Shown: one piece after another, positions 1,959 through 40,727 of the stretch
How positions within the stretch are numbered: the first letter of the stretch is position 1
Layout: each line of letters begins with the position of its first letter
DNA from: a virus
Taxonomy: Duplodnaviria > Heunggongvirae > Uroviricota > Caudoviricetes
Virus record (IMG/VR): IMGVR_UViG_2595698618_000001
Span: 79,136 to 143,135 of that record
Length of the DNA stretch: 64,000 bases
Reading direction: 5' to 3' (one strand)
The notes under the pieces: generated by a model
Seen by the model: the letters and a program-made list of their open reading frames with translations, nothing else
Database searches by the model: none
What the model was told of the DNA's origin: nothing
Program-made: the position numbers and the translations under genes

Positions 1959-2188
1959 TCCATCCACCGTCTAATGGCTTCGTTCTGCTCACTATCTGAC
2001 ATTTCTTGGAAGATTGGATGCCCCTGTGCTATCAGGAGTTGGTCTGCCATCATCCAACCAGCGATATATGCCTCCTCGTAGTCACTTATCAGAGCGTCTT
2101 TAGGGTCCGAGCAGTATCCCTTTGCTGACGCCATCTTCATACCCCACGCAAAGCCTTCAACGAATTGCTCGAACTCAAGAGCCGTCAT
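1955..2188 (-). CDS. hypothetical protein (77 aa)
   Basis: ORF-track ORF, ATG. Confidence 0.45.
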   Translation of the reverse strand: MTALEFEQFVEGFAWGMKMASAKGYCSDPKDALISDYEEAYIAGWMMADQLLIAQGHPIFQEMSDSEQNEAIRRWME

Positions 2189-2804
2189 AGTCTCCCCACT
2201 TGTATTCGTATCCCGGTACAGGCGAGTCTACTGAATCGTAGAAGTCGCTCTGTGAGCGTTTGTTGAAACAAACTCCTCGATAATCTTGGCAGGTGTCAAA
2301 GCCATATGAATTTAACCAGTCACGCAATTCCTCAGAGTTTTCATTGTAACTTGCTATTTGTGGGCGATTGCTTGGTTTTTCCAAATGACCATCGGTGGCA
2401 TACCAATGTTTTAATATTGTTCCTGTTGGTTCTATCTCATTCAACGGGAATTTCTTTTTACCTTTGGGATACCACAAATCACGCATCTCCTTAAATGACG
2501 GATGTGCTACTGTTCTAAGTCTATATTGCAATCCACCAACAGATGTTTCACTTGATACAGGGTGGACCCCGCTCTTAGTAACCAGCCAATCAGGAAATTG
2601 TTCTTCCACATACTGTAGATACTTCTTCTCATTTACTGCAACACCAAACAGCCCACTCTTTTCAATATGTCCATCTCCCATAAGTATACCAGTAACTATT
2701 TCAATTACTTCATCTGATAACTCTGGATATTCACATTCTGTTTGAGCAATATGCATCCCAAGATTCCGCAATCCATCTTTTCCACAATCAGGGCAAGTTT
2801 TCAT
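2175..2804 (-). CDS. LAGLIDADG-type homing endonuclease-like protein with N-terminal zinc finger (MKTCPDCGK...ILMGDGHI...HWYATDGHL)
   Basis: Two LAGLIDADG-like motifs; paralog of 20411..21037; locally AT-rich; start trimmed from ORF-track 2987 to ATG at 2804, which has cgaaagg-TTTATATAG promoter 23 nt upstream. Confidence 0.6.
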   Translation of the reverse strand: MKTCPDCGKDGLRNLGMHIAQTECEYPELSDEVIEIVTGILMGDGHIEKSGLFGVAVNEKKYLQYVEEQFPDWLVTKSGVHPVSSETSVGGLQYRLRTVAHPSFKEMRDLWYPKGKKKFPLNEIEPTGTILKHWYATDGHLEKPSNRPQIASYNENSEELRDWLNSYGFDTCQDYRGVCFNKRSQSDFYDSVDSPVPGYEYKWGDYDGS

Positions 2805-2859
2805 ATGTATTACCATTATGGCTACAACTATATAAACCTTTCGGTATAGCCAGAACGGT

Positions 2860-17630: not shown

Positions 17631-20243
17631 ATGAGTTCAGAACAAGACGCGGCCAAGACCGACGACGAGTTTGCACAGTACCGCTCCACCGCTGGAGCCG
17701 AGGTTAAGACGGCAGATGTTGCGAGTGATACGCACCCCCTCAAGGCAGAAATCGGGGACCAGAAGGAGCGCATCTATGACGCAAAAATCGCCGGAGAACG
17801 GTTCGTTCAGTTCTACGACGATAGTGCGGCGGCTATCCGCGAGTATCTTTCCAACGCGGAGACTGCCTGCATCCGTCGAGCGCGGCACGAGTTGCTGGAT
17901 GCTGGTGTCTCGGAGCAGGACATTCCGAGTAACGTGGCAGACCTCATCGAGATGGCGCAGGAGGTTGCTGGATACGAACCTCTTATTGAAGTGACGTACA
18001 ATCGCAAGAGCGACGAGACTCGCCTCGTTATCGAGGATAACGGTATCGGCATCTCTGTCGAGGAATATCAGGTGCTTCAGCGCATCGGCTACTCCACGTC
18101 TCACGGAAACGGTGAGCGTCTTGGGCAGTTCGGGATGGGCTTTATGTCAGGGTTCCAACTGACGAGTATTCACGGTGCGTTCCGTATGTTCACCCGGTCG
18201 TACCTCACGGAAGAAGCGTACAGCACGGTGGAGTACGTGGCAAACTGTGAATATCTGGATGGCGCACCCGAGACTTACGGGACCCGTTTCGAGTTCCCCG
18301 AGTTCGGTGAGGCGGCGAAGGAGATTCACATCCCCGCAAAAGTGGCAGAATATGCGGAGGGGATGCGCGTCCCCGTCCTGTACCGGGATTTCAACTCCTC
18401 GGGTCAGGAGACTGCGGAGAGTGACGACTTCCTTCCCCGCAATATCGAGGATGATTACAGCGATGATAGTCTCGTCGTTACGTTCGAGAACGACTACTTC
18501 AAGGCTGTTATGAGTCCTGATAAGCCGACGAACCGCCCCAACTCTCACGAACTTGTCACGTACAACGTGACGATGCCTATTCGACGCAACCTCGATTCGT
18601 GGAGTACGAACGACAAGTTCGAGGCTCCGTGGAAGTGGGACTTCCGTGGCAAGAAGGAAGACGGCCCCATCGTGAAGTGCGAGTCCGATGCCTCCGTCGA
18701 GGGTCTGGTTCCTGTCGAGAACAGCAAGTACGACAATATGATTCAGGAACAGCAGGCCAAGCATCTCCCGATGAGCGACGTTCCCGACGACGCAATCGTG
18801 ATGCCCGGTCCTGCGTCCAGCCGAGACTCCTATATGGGAGGCCACGACGACTTCTGGAAGTACGTGTCGGAGTGCCTGAACGAAGCGTGGGCTGAGATTG
18901 CCAAGGAGCGTTTCGAGAACCTCTCGTCGTGGGATGACTTCAAGGCTCTTGAGCGTGACGAGAAGAACGCGCTCTACCGCGCCTACAGCCAGTTCGGTCC
19001 TTCTTACGGGACGAACGACCCTGATAACATTCAGGAGACGCTCGAAGATGCATTCGGCGTCACGGTCCCGAAGGACGTGTGTGAGAAGATTGACAAGTCT
19101 CGCAAGAGTCTGATGGTGGTTCCACGAGGTCACAATCAGGCTCACCACAAGAAGCCTGCCAAGCGCAACAAGAAGAAGATTTGGCAGATTATTGACGAAG
19201 CGCCCGATGGCGTCTATATGGGCAAGTCCGTCAGTCAGAAGAAGGCGGAGATTGCGTGGGGTCTTGGCGATACTCACGTCATTCGGATTCAGCCTGACGA
19301 TGGGCAGACCTCTAAAGAGCGATACGCGGAATTGGAGGAACTGTGGGGCTTCAAGAAGTTGAAGGACCTTCCCAACTCGAAACTCAAGGAGCGTCTTCCG
19401 AATCTGGACGACGACGTTGCTGAGGAGTGGGAGAACGCGGATTACGTCAACAACACGTCCTCGTCTGGCGGTCGTCGGACGAGCCGTGACCCTACCACGA
19501 AGCGTATCAAGGTTCGTGTCGGGAAGCGTAGCCACCGCTACTTCAGCCGCTCGAAAGTGTCGTACATCGTGGACCAGTTGGAGAACGACGATGGGATTCG
19601 TGCAGGCAACTACACGGTGAAGAAACTCATCATCTACGACCAGACGAAGGTGGGTTCTACCCCAAGCACTCGGCACGCTGACAAGTACGGCGAGCCGGGA
19701 ATCGCTGTCGCCGCTGTCCCGAAGTACGTCTACAACTACCTCAAGGACAAGAAGAACGTCTACACGGACTACGACTCCCTCAAGGATGAACTGGTGCAGG
19801 ACGAGTTGGACGAGTATGACAATTCGGAGACGCTTATCTTCGCATCGAGCGAAGTGTTCAACGAGTACGAATCGAACGAGCAGGAACTTGTCAGCCTCCT
19901 GAACGAACACTCCGACGCTGGCCTCAACGAAGACGCAGACATTGAGGTTTACAGCACGAGTGACGCGAAGAACATCAGCCACGCACAGGGCACGGACTTC
20001 AATGCGAAGGTCGTCTCTGTTAACGGGAACCGTGCGGCTCGCGGCCTGAGCGAAGCCGACTACAAACTCAATCTGGTGGACCTGAAGTTCGCCCGAGAGG
20101 TTCCTGAGATGGACTTCGACGCGCCTGAGTTCAAGCAGGTCTTCGGTCGCAAGAAGTACCTCGACGCGGATTCCGCGAAGATGAACCGTGGCATCGAGAT
20201 TGTTAAAGCCTGCGGAGGTAAGTGGCCGAGTCAGCAGGACTGA
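17631..20243 (+). CDS. large GHKL-superfamily ATPase-domain protein (870 aa)
   Basis: N-terminal region paralogous to 5141..6730 (REYLSNAETACIRRA; IEDNGIGIS; GQFGMGFMSGF); long basic/acidic C-terminal extension. Confidence 0.7.
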   Translation: MSSEQDAAKTDDEFAQYRSTAGAEVKTADVASDTHPLKAEIGDQKERIYDAKIAGERFVQFYDDSAAAIREYLSNAETACIRRARHELLDAGVSEQDIPSNVADLIEMAQEVAGYEPLIEVTYNRKSDETRLVIEDNGIGISVEEYQVLQRIGYSTSHGNGERLGQFGMGFMSGFQLTSIHGAFRMFTRSYLTEEAYSTVEYVANCEYLDGAPETYGTRFEFPEFGEAAKEIHIPAKVAEYAEGMRVPVLYRDFNSSGQETAESDDFLPRNIEDDYSDDSLVVTFENDYFKAVMSPDKPTNRPNSHELVTYNVTMPIRRNLDSWSTNDKFEAPWKWDFRGKKEDGPIVKCESDASVEGLVPVENSKYDNMIQEQQAKHLPMSDVPDDAIVMPGPASSRDSYMGGHDDFWKYVSECLNEAWAEIAKERFENLSSWDDFKALERDEKNALYRAYSQFGPSYGTNDPDNIQETLEDAFGVTVPKDVCEKIDKSRKSLMVVPRGHNQAHHKKPAKRNKKKIWQIIDEAPDGVYMGKSVSQKKAEIAWGLGDTHVIRIQPDDGQTSKERYAELEELWGFKKLKDLPNSKLKERLPNLDDDVAEEWENADYVNNTSSSGGRRTSRDPTTKRIKVRVGKRSHRYFSRSKVSYIVDQLENDDGIRAGNYTVKKLIIYDQTKVGSTPSTRHADKYGEPGIAVAAVPKYVYNYLKDKKNVYTDYDSLKDELVQDELDEYDNSETLIFASSEVFNEYESNEQELVSLLNEHSDAGLNEDADIEVYSTSDAKNISHAQGTDFNAKVVSVNGNRAARGLSEADYKLNLVDLKFAREVPEMDFDAPEFKQVFGRKKYLDADSAKMNRGIEIVKACGGKWPSQQD

Positions 20244-20286
20244 GAAAATCGAAAGATTTAAGTAGTAGTGCTACGTAGTGCTATGT

Positions 20287-20418
20287 ATGGCACGAGATAA
20301 GAGTGTTGCAGTTTCAGAGTATGAATTAAATCTGCTTCGAGAGAAGCGGATGGAGTTATTCGGTACAGACGAAGTACCATATGGTGTAGTTATTTCTACA
20401 CTTTGTGAAGATGACTGA
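20287..20418 (+). CDS. small 'MARD' protein (43 aa), paralog of 40010..40156
   Basis: Hand-found ORF MARDKSVAVSEYELNLLREKRMELFGTDEVPYG; overlaps start of downstream endonuclease gene. Confidence 0.4.
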   Translation: MARDKSVAVSEYELNLLREKRMELFGTDEVPYGVVISTLCEDD

Positions 20419-21037
20419 ATGCCCTGCGTGCGGCAAGTCGTTTGAATCTATTGGTACACATTGGAGATACAATAACCATAGACCAGACTTTACTCCATAT
20501 CAACACGATGTTATTATAGGTTTACTTATGGGAGATGGTTCCATAAATAGAGGCGATAAGAATCCATATCTACAAGTAGAGATGATTACAGAGCCATATA
20601 TGAAATATTTGTGTGAGATATTTGATAAACTCGGCAGAGGGTACAGCATTTCCAAAGAATCAAACGGTAATCATAAAAAGAAGTTTCAGTTTACAACCAG
20701 AAATAATCCAAATTTAAAAGAGTATTCAGACTGGTATTCAACTGGCAAGAAGGTTTGGCCGAGTGATATTCATCTCACACCAACGGTGTTGACGCATTGG
20801 TATGTTGGGGATGGTCATTTTAATGAGAGTAATGCTACTCCATTTATTGAAATATCAATGGCTAATGAGATTGATAACAGAGATAAAGTGTGCGATATGT
20901 TCCGACGTGTAGATTTACCGGAGCCTACATTCAACTACTCATCAGCAAGGTGGTCTGTCAATGAATCTAAAGAACTATTTGAATATATGAACGACCCATT
21001 ACCCGGATTCGAGTATAAGTTCCCCTCGCAGAAGTAA
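20411..21037 (+). CDS. LAGLIDADG-type homing endonuclease-like protein with N-terminal zinc finger
   Basis: ECPACGK...GLLMGDGSI...HWYVGDGHF; strongly AT-rich relative to surroundings; paralog of 2175..2804; ATG 20411 (track start 20405 is GTG). Confidence 0.65.
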   Translation: MTECPACGKSFESIGTHWRYNNHRPDFTPYQHDVIIGLLMGDGSINRGDKNPYLQVEMITEPYMKYLCEIFDKLGRGYSISKESNGNHKKKFQFTTRNNPNLKEYSDWYSTGKKVWPSDIHLTPTVLTHWYVGDGHFNESNATPFIEISMANEIDNRDKVCDMFRRVDLPEPTFNYSSARWSVNESKELFEYMNDPLPGFEYKFPSQK

Positions 21038-21084: not shown

Positions 21085-21336
21085 ATGATACTCGAATTGA
21101 TTATCCTGATTTTCGTCGCTGGTGTCTCCGTATTCAACGTGAGTCACATCCGACGACAGTATAGACAGAATCGTGTGACCGCAGGCTGGACCTTCTGGTT
21201 GCTCTACGCCGTAGCCTTTGTGATGGTATTCTGGACGGCAATCACCGGAGCCTACATCCTGCTTCTTGCGTGGCTTATTATGCTCGGAGTGGACTCGCTT
21301 CAGGCGTACTACTACTTCGAGCAGGACGACGAGTAG
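21085..21336 (+). CDS. membrane protein (3 TM)
   Basis: ORF-track ORF; hydrophobic. Confidence 0.5.
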   Translation: MILELIILIFVAGVSVFNVSHIRRQYRQNRVTAGWTFWLLYAVAFVMVFWTAITGAYILLLAWLIMLGVDSLQAYYYFEQDDE

Positions 21337-26001: not shown

Positions 26002-26036
26002 AAAGGTTTAAGTGGATAGCAACCTTCTAAAGAAGT

Positions 26037-26999
26037 ATGAGAAAGTATCCGAAGATTAAATATCCTAACGACGAGGAGGCTCGCGGCGTTTTCGCCAAGG
26101 GCGATATTGTCATTCAGGAGAAACTTGACGGTGGTAACTTTCGCTTCACACACGAGCGGAATTTGGACGAGGAATATCACACAGACTCCCGTGATATAGT
26201 GTTCGGTAGTCGCAACGTTCAGTTCAAGAATGTGCGCGATGAAAACAAGCAGTTCGAGCGACCGATGAACTACATTCGAGAGAACGTCAACCCTCAGCAC
26301 ATCCTCGACGTTGAGGATTGGTATGATGGGCGGCTGACGTTCTTCGGAGAGGCAATGACTCCCCACACGCTTGAGTACGATTGGGAGGAAACACCCGGCT
26401 TCGTCGGATTCGACGTGTACGACGAGGCTTCTGGTCGCTGGCTCAACCACACGGAACTCGAACGTGCCTTCGAGCATCTCGGCCTCCCGACTGCGGAGAT
26501 TGTAGATATTGTCTCCGCTGAAGCGTGGGACGATTACGAGGTCGAAGTTCCGCAGAGCGAGTACGGAGAAGTCGAGGCAGAGGGCCTGACCTTCAAGAAC
26601 TACGAGACACAGACCTTCTCCAAGTTCGTGCGAGACGACTTCAAGGAGAAGAACAAGAAGACGTTCGGCGGAGGCGGCGGCAATCCCAACAAAGAGCCGT
26701 CCGGTGCTGAGAAACTCTCGTACCAGTACGTGACGAACGCTCGTATCGAGAAGAACGCTCACAAGATGGTAGACGAAGGGCCGTTTGAGAGTCTCAAGAT
26801 GGAGATGATGCAACCCACGGATGGGCACGACGGCCTCCCGCAAGCGGTCATTCGTGATATGGCCGAGGAGGAAGGCGTGAACATCTTCCTCAACGAGCGA
26901 TGGGAAGTTGACATTGGCGAGTTCCGCTCCATCACGGCAAGCCGCTGTGCCGCTGTCTTGAAGCAGATGATTCAAAAGCGGGCGGTCGAGGAACTATGA
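26037..26999 (+). CDS. RNA-ligase-like covalent nucleotidyltransferase
   Basis: Motif I EKLDGGN; motif IV EGLTFK; ~320 aa, no OB/DNA-ligase C-terminal motif VI. Confidence 0.55.
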   Translation: MRKYPKIKYPNDEEARGVFAKGDIVIQEKLDGGNFRFTHERNLDEEYHTDSRDIVFGSRNVQFKNVRDENKQFERPMNYIRENVNPQHILDVEDWYDGRLTFFGEAMTPHTLEYDWEETPGFVGFDVYDEASGRWLNHTELERAFEHLGLPTAEIVDIVSAEAWDDYEVEVPQSEYGEVEAEGLTFKNYETQTFSKFVRDDFKEKNKKTFGGGGGNPNKEPSGAEKLSYQYVTNARIEKNAHKMVDEGPFESLKMEMMQPTDGHDGLPQAVIRDMAEEEGVNIFLNERWEVDIGEFRSITASRCAAVLKQMIQKRAVEEL

Positions 27000-28442: not shown

Positions 28443-28687
28443 CGCTGGAATCCAAAGATGACGTGGAGAAATTCTTATGGAGTATTTGTCAGGGAGGATA
28501 CGATAATTACCGCTCGTCAAGTGACCATCACCGGAGGATTTTTGCTATTCGGATGATGCTCAAACGGCACGTCGATAGAGATACATATGATACGAAGTGT
28601 CGTGCCGAGTGTCGTGACGGGTCGCCTTGTCACCAGATGGTGAAGGTGTATCGGAAACGATGCAATCATCACGTAAGACTTAAGTAG
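28439..28687 (+). CDS. Cys/His-rich small protein
   Basis: ATGA-coupled internal start of ORF-track 28229..28687. Confidence 0.4.
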   Translation: MTLESKDDVEKFLWSICQGGYDNYRSSSDHHRRIFAIRMMLKRHVDRDTYDTKCRAECRDGSPCHQMVKVYRKRCNHHVRLK

Positions 28688-28708
28688 GTAGCCAACTAAG
28701 TAGATAGT

Positions 28709-30136
28709 ATGACGACGCAATCAGAATTACGAGACGCGCTGGACTACATTAAGAACGAGTCCGGCTCTGGCTCCAAGGCTCGCAAGCAGGAACGATTCGT
28801 AGACGTTTACACGGAGAACGTCGGCCACATCGTCACGGGAGAACGATACGACGATGCGGGAATTGGCAAGAAGACTGCGGAGAGCGCCGTAGAAGAACTC
28901 TACGGAGAACTCGACGGCCCTACTGTTAGCGAGTCTTTGCTCGATGCGTGGGGTGGCGATATTCAGTCGCTCGAAATCCTCGTGTCAGATTTGGACGAAC
29001 TTGCAAAACTGTCAGGCAACGAGCAGAAGGAGATGCTCGTCAATATGCTTGATGCACACGCAGAGCCAAGCCTCGTAACGCTGGCTCTCTTGGACGATGA
29101 AAGCATCGGCCTCGGGACAAGTCAGATGCGTGAGGCATTCTTCGACGGTACTCGTGATGAGCGGAAGCACGCTGAAGCCTTCGTAGAAACCACTACGGAG
29201 TTTATTTCACTCGCTCGTGACGAGGCACTTCCCACTCGGCCAATCGTCGGTCGTCCATTCGACCCGATGCTCGCGGTTCCTGAGAGTCGCGGCGAACCGG
29301 ATAATCCGATTGCACAGCGGAAGGTGGACGGATACCGTGTCCTGATTCACGTCAAGCAGGAGGAACTTGGCCCGAGAGCCTATGCCTTCTCCCGAGCGCG
29401 TAACGACGTTACAGCATCTCTCCCCGAGTTGAACGAAATCGACTGGCCGGAGCGTGGCGAATACATCCTCGACGGAGAGGTGATTGCGGAGAACGGTTCG
29501 TACAGCGACACGTCCTCGCGGGTTGGACGGAAGGCGGAGAACGTAGACCGCTCCACAGAGATGCACTTCTCTCTGTTCGACGTAGTGGTTCTAAACTCCG
29601 AGTACGTTGCCGAGCGTCCGTACAGCGATAGGTACGGTGGCCTCAAGGTCTTTATTCAAGAAGTCGATTCAGAGTATGTCAACCTTCTGGACATTTCAGA
29701 AGATGTTGAGGAAGCAAAGGACGAGGCTGTTGCGGCAGGCGAGGAAGGAATCATCGTGAAGGACTGGCACGCTCCTTACGAATTTGGCAAGCGGTCTACA
29801 TATTGGCAGAAGCGCAAGTTCGACGCAGAAACCGTGGACGTAAAGATTGTTGGATTCGATGAAGCCACGGGTGAAAAGAGTGGCACGCTCGGTGCTGTTC
29901 ACATTGAGAGTGCGGATGGCGTTCACGTCGGGAACAGCGGAAGTGGTTTCTCGGACGAACAGCGGCGTAAGATTTGGGAGAATCAGGACGACTGGATGAA
30001 CCGTTGTATTGAAGTCGAGGCTCGCGGTATCGGTACGCAGGGGAAACTGCGTATGCCCATCTTCAAGCGGGACCGTTCAGAGGATGGTGAGCCTGACTCC
30101 TACGACCGTATCTGCGAGATTATGAAGGAGATTTAG
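28709..30136 (+). CDS. lig: ATP-dependent DNA ligase
   Basis: Motif I KVDGYR, motif III FDVV, motif IV EGIIVKD, C-terminal motif VI LRMPIFKRDRSED. Confidence 0.85.
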   Translation: MTTQSELRDALDYIKNESGSGSKARKQERFVDVYTENVGHIVTGERYDDAGIGKKTAESAVEELYGELDGPTVSESLLDAWGGDIQSLEILVSDLDELAKLSGNEQKEMLVNMLDAHAEPSLVTLALLDDESIGLGTSQMREAFFDGTRDERKHAEAFVETTTEFISLARDEALPTRPIVGRPFDPMLAVPESRGEPDNPIAQRKVDGYRVLIHVKQEELGPRAYAFSRARNDVTASLPELNEIDWPERGEYILDGEVIAENGSYSDTSSRVGRKAENVDRSTEMHFSLFDVVVLNSEYVAERPYSDRYGGLKVFIQEVDSEYVNLLDISEDVEEAKDEAVAAGEEGIIVKDWHAPYEFGKRSTYWQKRKFDAETVDVKIVGFDEATGEKSGTLGAVHIESADGVHVGNSGSGFSDEQRRKIWENQDDWMNRCIEVEARGIGTQGKLRMPIFKRDRSEDGEPDSYDRICEIMKEI

Positions 30137-30171
30137 AAAGATTTAAGTAGATAGCGGCCCTCTTTTCGAGT
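30136..30171 (+). promoter_or_regulatory. BRE/TATA core promoter (gaaagaTTTAAGTAgatagcggccctcttttcgagtATG)
   Basis: Consensus. Confidence 0.5.
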
Positions 30172-39966: not shown

Positions 39967-40009
39967 GCAAACCGAAAGACTTAAGTAGTAGTAAACCGTT
40001 GTATACAGT

Positions 40010-40156
40010 ATGGCAAGAGACAATCTTGTGAGACTGTCAGATAGAGAGAAGAAATTACTCGAAGAAGTGAGGGATACGGAGTATGGAAGCGATAGCGTGC
40101 CTCTCGGTGAAGCCCTCGAAGTTGCGTGCGAGCAGTACCTCGAAAATGTCGAGTGA
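40010..40156 (+). CDS. small 'MARD' protein (48 aa), paralog of 20287..20418
   Basis: MARDNLVRLSDREKKLLEEVRDTEYGSDSVPLG; overlaps start of HNH gene. Confidence 0.45.
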   Translation: MARDNLVRLSDREKKLLEEVRDTEYGSDSVPLGEALEVACEQYLENVE

Positions 40157-40727
40157 TTGTCCATCGTGTGACAGGTCATTCGGTTCACAGAAAGGTATGA
40201 AGATTCACCACGCAAAAGCGCACGGTGAAAAGATTACCGAGAGCCACATCTGTCAAGAATGTGACGAACCATTCGAGCAAGAGTCATATATTCAATCTGA
40301 TAAGAAGTATTGCTCTCCCGAATGCGTCTACGAGGCTCGAAAAGATAGACTCACCACCGAGTGCGCTAACTGTGGGGAACCTGTCACGAAGAAACGCCAA
40401 CGCATCGAGCGAGTCGATACCGTCTACTGCGACGAGGATTGCTGGCGTGAGGCATTGCCAGACCCTTCATTCAGAGACAGCCAAGCCGCAAAGAACTTTC
40501 GAGAATCAGTTTTCGAGCGAGATGATTACATCTGTCAGGATTGTGACGAGCAAGGCGTAACGCTTAATGCACATCACATCGAACGAGTATCCGAGAATGA
40601 ACAACGAGCCTACGATACGGATAATGGTGTCACGCTGTGTGTGTCCTGTCACATCGAGCGGCACGAGTCTGCTGGTGAGAATAACGCGGCACGACTACTG
40701 CGGAGCAAGTACGAAACGCTTAAGTAG
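40146..40727 (+). CDS. HNH endonuclease with N-terminal C2H2-like and zinc-ribbon modules
   Basis: CPSCDRSF...HHAKAH; CQDCDEQG...NAHHIE...CVSCHIERH. Confidence 0.65.
   Translation: MSSDCPSCDRSFGSQKGMKIHHAKAHGEKITESHICQECDEPFEQESYIQSDKKYCSPECVYEARKDRLTTECANCGEPVTKKRQRIERVDTVYCDEDCWREALPDPSFRDSQAAKNFRESVFERDDYICQDCDEQGVTLNAHHIERVSENEQRAYDTDNGVTLCVSCHIERHESAGENNAARLLRSKYETLK

What the first reader, a model, noticed from the sequence alone, without database searches (positions are those of the whole stretch)
20287..21037. AT-rich LAGLIDADG homing-endonuclease genes (two paralogs) and an HNH endonuclease, two of them preceded by paralogous 'MARD' mini-ORFs
- 20411..21037 and 2175..2804 encode paralogous proteins: a zinc finger (CP[AD]CGK) followed by two LAGLIDADG-like motifs (LLMGDGSI / HWYVGDGHF).
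- Both loci are conspicuously AT-rich against a ~55-60% GC background, typical of recently acquired free-standing homing endonucleases.
- 40146..40727 is an HNH endonuclease with zinc-finger modules.
- The LAGLIDADG gene at 20411 and the HNH gene at 40146 are each overlapped at their 5' end by a small ORF with the same N-terminus and motif (MARD..L.REK.LLEE.R..E(F/Y)G(T/S)D.VP.G).

This suggests a mobile two-gene module, or a conserved regulatory or antitoxin-like partner of the endonucleases.
Basis: partly seen in the sequence, partly recalled or inferred. Interest (0 to 1): 0.6.

Follow-up and report, generated by a model that had tools for sequence, protein, structure and literature searches.

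The report
Mini regulator gene fronting homing endonucleases
In the archaeal virus HGTV-1, two selfish DNA-cutting-enzyme genes each travel as a cassette with their own promoter and a tiny upstream gene for a predicted ribbon-helix-helix DNA-binding protein, probably a built-in repressor; the enzymes were already annotated, but the small partner family and its link to them were not.

Summary
The window is Halogranum tailed virus 1 (HGTV-1, NC_021328), bases 79136-143135. All the reported genes are real. gp205 and gp166 are LAGLIDADG_2 paralogs and gp246 is an HNH enzyme; all three are already annotated as such.

The new part is the pair of 'MARD' mini-ORFs, gp204 and gp245, annotated as hypothetical.
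- They are paralogs (44% identity) and the only two copies in the genome.
- They belong to a family of 43-60 aa proteins (35 close homologs, 115 cluster representatives) under purifying selection.
- They are predicted to have a ribbon-helix-helix fold.

In 15 of 17 close-clade loci the mini-ORF is the first cistron of a self-promoted, probably leaderless, two-gene unit. Its stop overlaps by 8, 11 or 17 nt the start of a zinc-finger homing endonuclease: LAGLIDADG in 9 loci, HNH in 6.

Related viral contigs show empty sites, an endonuclease-only allele and an endonuclease swap behind an identical mini-ORF. In cassette 1 the mini-ORF shares the AT-rich composition of its endonuclease.

Best reading: a CopG/Arc-like autorepressor that is part of a mobile endonuclease cassette. 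Repression is inferred, not shown. This is a new variant of a known kind, of moderate interest.

The parts
20246..20286 (+). Promoter of cassette 1. BRE/TATA-like consensus GAAAGATTTAAGTAGT at 20251-20266. Two tandem copies of GTAGTGCTA at 20265-20273 and 20275-20283 (period 10 bp) lie between the TATA box and the ATG: candidate operator.
   Evidence: Exact match to the genome-wide promoter motif. The TATA-to-ATG spacing of about 21 nt matches the other genes, which implies a leaderless mRNA. The repeat scores 9/9, the best of 70 promoter-like sites. GTAGTGCTA occurs nowhere else in the genome. The spacer is conserved in L031 and L015 well above synonymous sites.
20287..20418 (+). gp204, 43-aa 'MARD' mini-protein with a predicted ribbon-helix-helix fold; first cistron of cassette 1.
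20411..21037 (+). gp205, zinc-finger + LAGLIDADG_2 homing endonuclease; second cistron. Its start codon lies 8 nt inside gp204.
   Evidence: Pfam LAGLIDADG_2 E 2.6e-18. AT-rich, GC 0.38. Absent from the same site in L023. A 36%-identical allele without a mini-ORF sits there in L024, and a close allele with the mini-ORF in L031.
39969..40009 (+). Promoter of cassette 2. GAAAGACTTAAGTAGT at 39974-39989. The spacer holds GTAGTAAAC/GTTGTATAC (7/9 repeat, period 10) and the palindrome TGTATACA at 40000-40007.
   Evidence: joint second-highest repeat score of 70 sites; palindrome unique in the genome. The CGTAGTATACAGT-ATG spacer is conserved in L005, L032 and L016.
40010..40156 (+). gp245, 48-aa MARD mini-protein of the second subfamily; first cistron of cassette 2.
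   Evidence: Pairwise dN/dS 0.06 and 0.11 for the two gp245-like pairs with unsaturated dS. GC3 0.51, matching gp246 at 0.52.
40146..40727 (+). gp246, C2H2-type zinc fingers + HNH endonuclease; second cistron. Its start codon lies 11 nt inside gp245.
   Evidence: Pfam HNH 28.2 bits. Homologous to the partners of mini-ORFs in L015 (29% identity, E 4e-21), L012 and L013.
2175..2804 (-). gp166, LAGLIDADG_2 paralog of gp205 with the same zinc finger, its own promoter (2827-2842) and no mini-ORF. It shows that the mini-ORF is an accessory, not a requirement.
   Evidence: GC 0.41.
28620..28728 (+). Empty-site allele in HGTV-1: the gp222 to DNA ligase gp223 intergenic region. In the related contigs L012 and L013 a promoter+MARD+HNH cassette of about 1 kb sits here, between the ligase TATA box and the ligase ATG.
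   Evidence: blastn synteny breaks at L012 4888-5881 against window 28620-28728. Junction alignment.

Best explanation
gp204 and gp245 are small ribbon-helix-helix (CopG/Arc-like) DNA-binding proteins. Each is an integral part of a free-standing homing-endonuclease cassette.

Each cassette has three parts:
- a copy of the virus's standard BRE/TATA promoter;
- the RHH mini-gene, starting at or very near the predicted transcript 5' end (leaderless);
- a zinc-finger homing endonuclease (LAGLIDADG or HNH) whose start codon lies 8-17 nt inside the end of the RHH gene. It therefore has no promoter of its own and is most likely translated by termination-reinitiation coupling.

The whole unit is gained and lost together, and the endonuclease part can be exchanged behind the RHH gene.

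Proposed mechanism: RHH dimers bind the repeat or palindrome that lies between the TATA box and the start codon of their own cassette. This blocks RNA polymerase recruitment. The nuclease is then made only together with, and limited by, its repressor, which keeps a potentially genome-damaging enzyme at a low, self-limiting level.

Shown here: the gene family, the fold prediction, the architecture, its recurrence with two nuclease classes, the presence/absence alleles and the composition.
Inferred: DNA binding, the operator, repression, translational coupling and leaderless transcription.
For: Family and selection
- The two ORFs are paralogs and the only copies in the genome.
- There are 35 homologs at E <= 4.5e-10 and 115 cluster representatives at E <= 1e-3.
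- dN/dS is about 0.1-0.3 with saturated dS.

Fold
- The AF2 model has pLDDT 89 with an extended N-terminus and two helices.
- The recurrent sub-threshold Pfam hits are RHH-type families by my own knowledge of Pfam: RHH_1, VAPB_antitox, TacA1, NikA-like and probably DUF6290.
- A natural tandem MARD-MARD protein exists, as do MARD + winged-helix fusions.

Architecture
- In 15 of 17 close-clade loci the next gene is a zinc-finger endonuclease overlapping by 8, 11 or 17 nt: 9 LAGLIDADG and 6 HNH.
- Both mini-ORF subfamilies pair with both nuclease classes.

One mobile unit
- L023 is empty at the gp203/gp207 site.
- HGTV-1 is empty where L012 and L013 carry promoter+MARD+HNH.
- The GC3 of each mini-ORF matches its endonuclease rather than the flanks.

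Candidate operator
- The two cassettes rank first and joint second of 70 promoter-like sites for a 10-bp-period direct repeat in the spacer.
- These motifs are unique in the genome.
- The spacers are 0.82-0.91 identical between cassettes whose third codon positions are only 0.48-0.60 identical.
- K-S type N-termini go with GTGCTA repeats and N-T type with GTAT(C/A)A repeats.

Regulator-like position of distant relatives: first gene of operons next to an integrase or a primase in haloarchaeal proviruses.

Functional precedent: an RHH protein (Arc) represses the promoters of IS605 nuclease and transposase genes, and Arc genes were noted next to homing endonucleases (bioRxiv 10.64898/2026.09.24.754181).
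Against: - No experiment or direct computation shows DNA binding or repression.
- Part of the 10-bp 'GTA' periodicity belongs to the general promoter architecture of this virus (TTAAGTAG...CGTA...AGTATG). The operator is therefore not cleanly separable from basal promoter elements.
- The mini-ORF is dispensable. gp166, gp50 and the L024 allele at the very same site are endonucleases with their own promoters and no mini-ORF.
- Two close-clade loci lack an endonuclease partner: L022 and L028.
- No empty-site allele was found for cassette 2.
Confidence: 0.6

Rival explanations
1. General early or switch regulator with a hitch-hiking endonuclease. The mini-protein regulates other viral or host genes, and endonuclease genes simply insert behind it. 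Its 3' end would then be the homing target or landing pad.
For: - Distant family members head non-endonuclease operons next to integrase or primase genes.
- L012 and L013 carry a 100% identical mini-ORF followed by HNH genes only 27% identical, with the break about 9 codons into the endonuclease.
- The junction GAAAATGTCGAGTGA is shared by different cassettes.
Against: - No mini-ORF-only allele was seen at the two sites with comparative data. The sites are either empty, endonuclease-only, or carry both genes.
- Mini-ORF composition follows the endonuclease, not the flanks.
- The repeat motifs occur nowhere else in the HGTV-1 genome, so no other obvious binding sites exist.
Confidence: 0.13
2. 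Antitoxin- or immunity-like protein. The mini-protein binds the nuclease (perhaps through the shared N-terminal zinc finger) or shields the genome's own target site, neutralising cleavage of the carrier genome.
For: - The gene order and overlap resemble type II toxin-antitoxin operons.
- All partner nucleases share an N-terminal CxxC...H..H finger.
- The gp245-type proteins have a 10-15 aa acidic tail.
Against: - The 43-aa forms are nothing but the RHH core, with no room for a toxin-binding extension.
- The partners have two unrelated catalytic folds.
- The same zinc-finger endonucleases exist without the mini-ORF (gp166, the L024 allele).
- Distant relatives pair with non-nucleases.
Confidence: 0.12
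3. DNA-targeting or recombination accessory. The RHH protein helps the endonuclease find or process its homing site, or promotes repair and recombination at the break, in the way modular DNA-binding domains do for other homing endonucleases.
For: - Homing endonucleases are modular and often use small DNA-binding modules (own knowledge).
- The mini-ORF travels with the nuclease.
Against: - No fusion of the MARD domain to a nuclease domain was found in the seven longer cluster representatives whose sequences were read, out of 115.
- The same mini-ORF subfamily serves nucleases at different genomic sites, which presumably have different targets.
- The partner nucleases already carry their own zinc fingers.
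Confidence: 0.1
4. Only an upstream ORF. The peptide is irrelevant, and the ORF exists just to load ribosomes on a leaderless mRNA and deliver a small fraction to the endonuclease start codon.
For: - The overlap is constant at 8, 11 or 17 nt and the junction DNA (TGTGAAGATG) is conserved.
- The spacing suggests leaderless transcripts.
Against: - There is strong purifying selection on the amino-acid sequence (dN/dS 0.1-0.3).
- The fold is predicted with confidence.
- R3, E13 and G33 are nearly invariant across 115 representatives.
- Endonucleases without the ORF are expressed from their own leaderless promoters.
Confidence: 0.03

Closest known systems
CopG of plasmid pMV158 (copG-repB operon) and phage P22 Arc/Mnt: minimal RHH autorepressors
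   Same: A protein of about 45-53 aa that is only an RHH core. It is the first cistron of the operon it controls. The operator consists of repeats overlapping the promoter. N-terminal strand pattern R-x-x-T-I-x-L-S (own knowledge of these proteins; fold similarity).
   Different: No Pfam RHH family is reached at threshold. The promoter here is an archaeal TATA/BRE type with a leaderless mRNA. The regulated gene is a homing endonuclease, not a replication or lysis-lysogeny gene. Binding is untested.
Arc RHH proteins of IS605-family transposons (Moon et al., bioRxiv 10.64898/2026.09.24.754181)
   Same: A tiny RHH encoded inside a selfish element that carries a homing-type nuclease (TnpB). It was shown to bind and repress the element's own promoter. 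The authors note in passing that arc genes also lie next to homing-endonuclease genes.
   Different: That work concerns bacterial IS elements with divergent gene pairs. Here the genes belong to archaeal virus cassettes and are co-directional and overlapping. The two endonuclease classes are protein-only. No sequence relationship was tested or found.
Controller (C) proteins of restriction-modification systems
   Same: A small DNA-binding gene placed immediately upstream of, and often overlapping, a nuclease gene. It autoregulates so that the nuclease is delayed or limited (own knowledge; the regulation review PMC3874152 appeared).
   Different: C proteins are helix-turn-helix, not RHH. They act as activator-repressors that coordinate with a methyltransferase, and there is no methyltransferase partner here. 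This is a 'works like' comparison, not membership.
Self-limiting expression of phage T4 homing endonucleases (I-TevI autorepression; seg/mob free-standing genes, intronless homing)
   Same: Free-standing endonuclease genes inserted between conserved genes. They show presence/absence and replacement polymorphisms and flanking-marker exchange, and their expression needs to be kept low (own knowledge; reviews PMC2988022 and PMC10055350 were listed).
   Different: In T4 the nuclease itself or RNA structure does the regulating. Here a separate dedicated protein gene is part of the cassette.
RHH antitoxins of type II toxin-antitoxin systems (MazE9, TacA, ParD, RelB)
   Same: Upstream overlapping gene order, an RHH fold and a nuclease-type partner. 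These proteins are among the structural neighbours.
   Different: There is no C-terminal toxin-binding region in the 43-aa forms. The partners have two unrelated folds and the partner is dispensable. No addiction logic is evident in a lytic virus genome.

Membership tests
Ribbon-helix-helix (MetJ/Arc/CopG) superfamily | N-terminal beta-strand followed by two helices joined by a short G-x-(S/T/N/D) turn, in about 40-45 residues | tested here: met
   In the AF2 model, residues 1-10 are extended and helices span 11-25 and 32-39, with pLDDT 89. A conserved F-G-(T/S)-D turn is visible.
Ribbon-helix-helix (MetJ/Arc/CopG) superfamily | Structural similarity to solved RHH proteins | tested here: met
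Ribbon-helix-helix (MetJ/Arc/CopG) superfamily | Sequence-profile match to a curated RHH family | tested here: not met
   gp204 and gp245 have no Pfam hit. Among 115 family members there are only scattered sub-threshold hits: DUF6290 x5, RHH_1 x2, NikA-like x2, VAPB_antitox and TacA1. There is no PDB sequence match. This would be a new family within the fold.
Ribbon-helix-helix (MetJ/Arc/CopG) superfamily | Obligate dimer through an antiparallel two-stranded ribbon that reads the major groove of repeated operator sites | tested here: inconclusive
   A natural tandem MARD-MARD protein (P0076) exists. Its single-sequence model gives strands at residues 4-10 and 64-70, but pLDDT is only 42. Candidate repeats lie in the promoter spacers. 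No binding data exist.
LAGLIDADG homing endonucleases (Pfam LAGLIDADG_2) | Profile match above the curated cut-off and two LAGLIDADG-type motifs in one chain | tested here: met
   gp205 scores 67 bits and gp166 53.9 bits against a cut-off of 25. The motifs LLMGDGS and HWYVGDGH are visible in the translation.
LAGLIDADG homing endonucleases (Pfam LAGLIDADG_2) | Behaves as a mobile gene: presence/absence at a fixed site between conserved genes | tested here: met
   The gp203/gp207 site is empty in L023, carries an endonuclease only in L024, and carries mini-ORF + endonuclease in HGTV-1 and L031. The island is AT-rich. Actual cleavage and homing are not testable here.
HNH endonucleases (Pfam HNH) | HNH profile match above the cut-off | tested here: met
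   gp246 scores 28.2 bits against a cut-off of 21.4. Among the partners, L013 and L014 are above the cut-off, while L012 and L016 have only sub-threshold HNH_2 hits.
Type II toxin-antitoxin module (RHH antitoxin + nuclease toxin) | Antitoxin carries a toxin-binding extension beyond the RHH core, and the pair is a fixed cognate couple | tested here: not met
   The 43-44-aa forms end at helix 2. The same mini-ORF subfamily pairs with LAGLIDADG and HNH folds, and an identical mini-ORF pairs with HNH genes only 27% identical.
Restriction-modification controller (C) proteins | Helix-turn-helix (Xre-like) fold and linkage to a methyltransferase/endonuclease pair | tested here: not met
   The fold is RHH-like rather than HTH. 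No methyltransferase is adjacent. The resemblance is in gene layout and presumed logic only.

The most novel reading that the evidence does not exclude
The RHH mini-gene plus promoter is a portable 'expression-and-control adapter' that lets any zinc-finger homing endonuclease, whether LAGLIDADG or HNH, function as a self-contained cassette in leaderless archaeal virus genomes. Its conserved 3' junction (…TGTGAAGATG… / GAAAATGTCGAGTGA) doubles as the recombination or homing point at which rival endonucleases displace one another. That would make this a two-layer selfish element, with a stable regulator 'socket' and exchangeable nuclease 'plugs', which has not been described for homing endonucleases.
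Probability: 0.2. Interest if true: 0.65.

Novelty: new variant of a known kind. Interest (0 to 1): 0.45.

Why it matters
Free-standing homing endonucleases are usually described as single selfish genes that rely on the nuclease itself, RNA structure or host promoters for restraint. Here a dedicated, conserved mini-regulator gene appears to be built into the mobile unit. It serves two unrelated nuclease classes and is exchangeable with them.

If repression is confirmed, three things follow:
- Homing-endonuclease cassettes, like restriction-modification systems (C proteins) and IS605 elements (Arc), would have converged on a tiny autorepressor placed in front of the nuclease.
- Two 'hypothetical' HGTV-1 proteins and more than 100 metagenomic protein clusters would gain a function.
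- A compact archaeal promoter-operator-repressor unit of about 170 bp would become available for haloarchaeal genetics.

It is not a new principle, and the endonuclease genes themselves were already annotated.

Tried and rejected
- **Shared upstream DNA as a cassette signature: rejected.** GAAAGAnTTAAGTAGT is the general promoter motif of this virus, with 46 hits against 1.5 expected. It has already been published for HGTV-1. Only the spacer repeats are cassette-specific.
- **More MARD copies in HGTV-1:** none found by tblastn or HMM over six frames.
- **MARD in cultured phage or virus records:** only HGTV-1 itself among 50,697 records.
- **MARD pattern scan of 185,579 prokaryote genomes:** no confirmed hit with the strict pattern. 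The broad alignment A4 was too diverse to scan. Distant members do occur in Haloarcula and Halopiger genomes.
- **Empty-site allele for cassette 2:** relatives of gp244 and gp247 were not found in IMG/VR.
- **Sequence-level link to known RHH families:** none in PDB sequences or Pfam at threshold. PHROGs was uninformative.
- **Model of the natural tandem protein P0076**, intended to show the ribbon: too low in confidence (pLDDT 42).
- **Second mini-ORF in L005:** a 39-aa ORF in front of an HNH gene has no detectable relation to MARD (hhalign probability 0.4) and no Pfam hit.
- **Fusion of MARD to a nuclease domain ('Rosetta stone'):** not found in the seven longer cluster representatives read. 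Longer members carry a winged helix, a second MARD domain or unknown tails.
- **Split-gene idea** (mini-ORF as an exon of a gene interrupted by the endonuclease): rejected, because the downstream genes differ at every site.
Full report
**Source.** The window is 100% identical to Halogranum tailed virus 1 (HGTV-1; NC_021328/KC292026; 143,855 bp; Halomagnusviridae), bases 79136-143135. The record annotates 2175-2816(-) and 20411-21037 as LAGLIDADG endonucleases (genes 166 and 205). It annotates 40146-40727 as an HNH endonuclease (gene 246). The two small ORFs, 20278-20418 and 40010-40156 (genes 204 and 245), are annotated as hypothetical proteins. The endonuclease part of the finding is therefore already known; the mini-ORFs are not explained anywhere I could find.

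**Observation check.**
- gp205 and gp166 both exceed the Pfam LAGLIDADG_2 cut-off and are 29% identical, E 7e-22. gp246 exceeds the HNH cut-off.
- gp205 has GC 0.38 and gp166 0.41, against a window mean of 0.52 and GC3 of 0.64-0.73 in neighbouring genes. The HNH cassette is only mildly shifted.
- The two 'MARD' peptides are 44% identical over 41 residues, E 5e-10. A whole-genome tblastn and HMM search finds only these two copies.
- Each mini-ORF overlaps the start of its endonuclease, by 8 nt and 11 nt respectively.
- Corrections: gp166 is on the minus strand, and the background GC is about 52%.

**The mini-ORFs are real protein genes of an unannotated family.**
- A profile of the two peptides retrieves 35 proteins at E <= 4.5e-10 from 5.8 billion sequences. 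It retrieves 115 representatives of 50%-identity clusters at E <= 1e-3 from 1.84 billion. Nearly all are 43-60 aa and come from hypersaline metagenomes.
- They fall into a gp204-like subfamily (43-45 aa...FGTDEVPYGVVIS.LCE..) and a gp245-like subfamily (48-56 aa...FGSDSVPLGEALEVACENYLGEMRLD..).
- Pairwise dN/dS is 0.04-0.39 in all but one comparison, with a median of 0.21 in the gp204-like group. The two gp245-like pairs that could be computed gave 0.06 and 0.11. Synonymous sites are saturated. The amino-acid sequence is therefore under selection.

**Fold.**
- AlphaFold2 on the 31-sequence alignment gives pLDDT 89.3. Residues 1-10 are extended, and helices span 11-25 and 32-39.
- Foldseek's best hits are the RHH-like TCP domain, Reg576 and ArtA, but with E > 1.
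- No Pfam family is hit at threshold. The recurrent weak hits among 115 members are to RHH-type families: DUF6290, RHH_1, NikA-like, VAPB_antitox and TacA1.
- A natural tandem MARD-MARD protein (P0076) and two MARD + winged-helix fusions (P0053, P0147) exist. Both fit a dimeric DNA-binding module.
- I conclude that this is a new sequence family with an RHH fold, with good but not conclusive support.

**Architecture.** I examined 17 distinct loci of the close clade: the two in HGTV-1 and 15 metagenomic or viral contigs.
- In 15 of them the gene immediately downstream is a zinc-finger homing endonuclease whose ATG lies 8, 11 or 17 nt upstream of the mini-ORF stop.
- Nine partners are LAGLIDADG_2: gp205, L005, L010, L018, L019, L020, L021, L031 and L032.
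- Six are HNH-type: gp246, L012, L013, L014, L015 and L016.
- Both mini-ORF subfamilies occur with both nuclease classes.
- The exceptions are L022, where an IS-type transposase lies next door, and L028, where the partner is a 298-aa protein of unknown function.
- Every cassette is preceded by the virus group's standard promoter-like motif. In the window this motif, GAAAGAnTTAAGTAGT, has 46 matches against 1.5 expected, and it lies on the coding strand in front of annotated gene starts. It was already reported for HGTV-1.
- The TATA-like box sits about 21-23 nt before the ATG at MARD and non-MARD genes alike. From general knowledge of haloarchaeal promoters, this implies leaderless mRNAs.
- The endonuclease has no such motif of its own. 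It is thus the second cistron of a bicistronic unit.

**The cassette moves as a unit.**
- *Site 1, between gp203 and gp207.*
  - L023 has the two homologs 38 nt apart with a single promoter. This is the empty site.
  - L024 has a 242-aa LAGLIDADG gene, 36% identical to gp205, with its own promoter and no mini-ORF.
  - HGTV-1 and L031 (mini-ORF 95% identical) have promoter + mini-ORF + endonuclease. HGTV-1 additionally has gp206.
- *Site 2, before the DNA ligase gene.*
  - L012 and L013 carry promoter + mini-ORF + HNH.
  - HGTV-1 has only about 108 nt there, window 28620-28728.
  - The junction alignment places the insert between the ligase TATA box and the ligase ATG.
- *Composition.* GC3 is 0.27 for gp204 and 0.36 for gp205, against 0.72, 0.69 and 0.73 for gp203, gp206 and gp207. 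It is 0.51 for gp245 and 0.52 for gp246, against 0.65 and 0.61 for their flanks.
- *Endonuclease swap.*
  - L012 and L013 are 99% identical for 3.6 kb, through the mini-ORF and the first nine or so codons of the endonuclease.
  - Beyond that point they carry HNH genes only 27% identical and ligase genes only 68-70% identical in DNA.
  - The endonuclease and its right flank were therefore exchanged behind an unchanged mini-ORF.
- No mini-ORF-only allele was seen at either site.

**Candidate operator.**
- Among 70 promoter-like sites in the HGTV-1 genome, the two cassettes rank first (9/9: GTAGTGCTA twice, 10 bp apart) and joint second (7/9) for a direct repeat of period about 10 in the TATA-to-ATG spacer. 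The background mode is 4-5 of 9.
- GTAGTGCTA occurs nowhere else in the genome. The palindrome TGTATACA in the gp245 spacer is also unique.
- Seven of the ten metagenomic cassettes with a recognisable TATA box score 6-8.
- In-register spacers are 0.82-0.91 identical between cassettes whose third codon positions are only 0.48-0.60 identical.
- Mini-proteins with K-S at residues 5-6 (HGTV-1, L031, L015) go with GTGCTA repeats. Those with N-T go with GTAT(C/A)A repeats.
- Caveat: a CGTA element about 10 nt after the TATA box and AGTATG at the start are general features of this virus's promoters. Part of the periodicity is therefore basal.

**Wider family.** More distant members (28-46% identity) are not linked to endonucleases.
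- Some are the first gene of an operon divergent from an integrase (L030).
- Others lie upstream of primase or Prim-Pol genes in integrated elements (L025; L027 in the Haloarcula rubripromontorii chromosome).
- Others head small-gene operons (L028, L029).

This is the typical position of a small transcriptional regulator of a mobile element. It suggests that the endonuclease-linked clade is a specialised offshoot.

**Mechanism.** I consider it most likely (about 0.6) that the mini-protein is a CopG/Arc-like autorepressor. Dimers would bind the spacer repeats and block polymerase recruitment at the cassette promoter. The overlapping start codon would tie endonuclease synthesis to prior translation of the repressor.

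Rival explanations, with approximate probabilities:
- A general regulator behind which endonucleases insert, with its 3' end as a landing pad (about 0.13).
- An antitoxin- or immunity-type inhibitor (about 0.12). This is disfavoured by the bare RHH core, by partners with two unrelated folds and by the mini-ORF being dispensable.
- A DNA-targeting accessory (about 0.10).
- A mere coupling ORF (about 0.03). This is contradicted by dN/dS.

**Comparison with known systems.**
- The layout works like R-M controller proteins, but the fold is different.
- It works like copG-repB, which has the same fold class and the same first-cistron logic.
- It works like the Arc repressors of IS605 elements. For these a 2026 preprint shows promoter binding and repression, and mentions in passing that arc genes lie next to homing endonucleases.
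- I found no description of a dedicated RHH gene as an integral, exchangeable part of homing-endonuclease cassettes, nor of this family.

**Verdict.** This is a new variant of a known kind, interest 0.45.

Noticed in passing
window, 46 sites (e.g. 17595, 20251, 24886, 30136, 32710, 39974); whole genome: The promoter-like motif GAAAGAnTTAAGTAGT lies on the coding strand in front of most gene starts (46 hits against 1.5 expected). Its spacing to the ATG is nearly constant at 21-23 nt, which implies leaderless mRNAs. It often has a CGTA element about 10 nt after the TATA box and AGTATG at the start. The motif was already reported for HGTV-1 (Sencilo 2013, cited in PMC3950731).
   Followed up: partly
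window 2804-2842 (-): By promoter spacing, gp166 (LAGLIDADG) probably starts at ATG 2804 (MKTCPDCGK). This matches the N-termini of its relatives. The annotated start at 2816 lies only 11 nt after the TATA-like box.
   Followed up: partly
L005 9954-10073 and 10057-10713: A second, sequence-unrelated 39-aa ORF (MKVQKTLSLPIDVAQELNGEDNQSALVTELLREHYGIEE) looks RHH-like by eye. It overlaps by 17 nt a zinc-finger HNH gene, and GTACGTAT/GTACGTAC repeats lie in its promoter spacer. This may be an independent case of the same design. It has no Pfam hit and no hhalign match to the MARD family.
   Followed up: partly
L012 1003-2009, 4888-5881, 7175-7977 against window 26013-26061, 28620-28728, 29986-30158: The 20.6-kb viral contig IMGVR_UViG_3300003629_000021 is syntenic with HGTV-1 genes 215-229. 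It carries three endonuclease insertions that HGTV-1 lacks: LAGLIDADG before the RNA ligase, MARD+HNH before the DNA ligase, and HNH after the DNA ligase. The region is a hot spot for homing endonucleases.
   Followed up: partly
L012 5152-5177 / L013 3592-3617: There is a sharp recombination breakpoint about 9 codons into the endonuclease. Identity is 99% to the left for 3.6 kb. To the right lie divergent HNH alleles and a ligase gene only 68-70% identical, which looks like a co-conversion tract or a modular exchange at the conserved junction GAAAATGTCGAGTGA.
   Followed up: partly
window 21085-21336 (gp206): This 83-aa hydrophobic ORF has native-like GC3 (0.69) and its own promoter. It sits between the cassette and gp207 only in HGTV-1 and is absent from L023 and L024. 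Its origin and function are unknown.
   Followed up: no
window 17631-20243 (gp203) and L031 1350-3956: The 870-aa protein flanking cassette 1 is conserved at 71-73% in related viral contigs. It has a weak HATPase_c_3 (GHKL ATPase) hit on record for the L031 homolog. L031 has a further LAGLIDADG gene upstream of it that HGTV-1 lacks.
   Followed up: no
P0076, P0053, P0147; L025, L027, L030: Family variants include a tandem MARD-MARD protein and fusions of MARD to a winged-helix (HTH_24/MarR-like) domain. Distant members are the first gene next to integrase or primase genes in haloarchaeal proviruses, including the Haloarcula rubripromontorii chromosome.
   Followed up: partly
window 20411-20480, 40146-40230, 2730-2804(-); partners: LAGLIDADG and HNH enzymes of these viruses share the same kind of N-terminal CxxC...H..H zinc finger, and sometimes the same first residues (MSS-C). 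This suggests domain shuffling between the two endonuclease classes.
   Followed up: no
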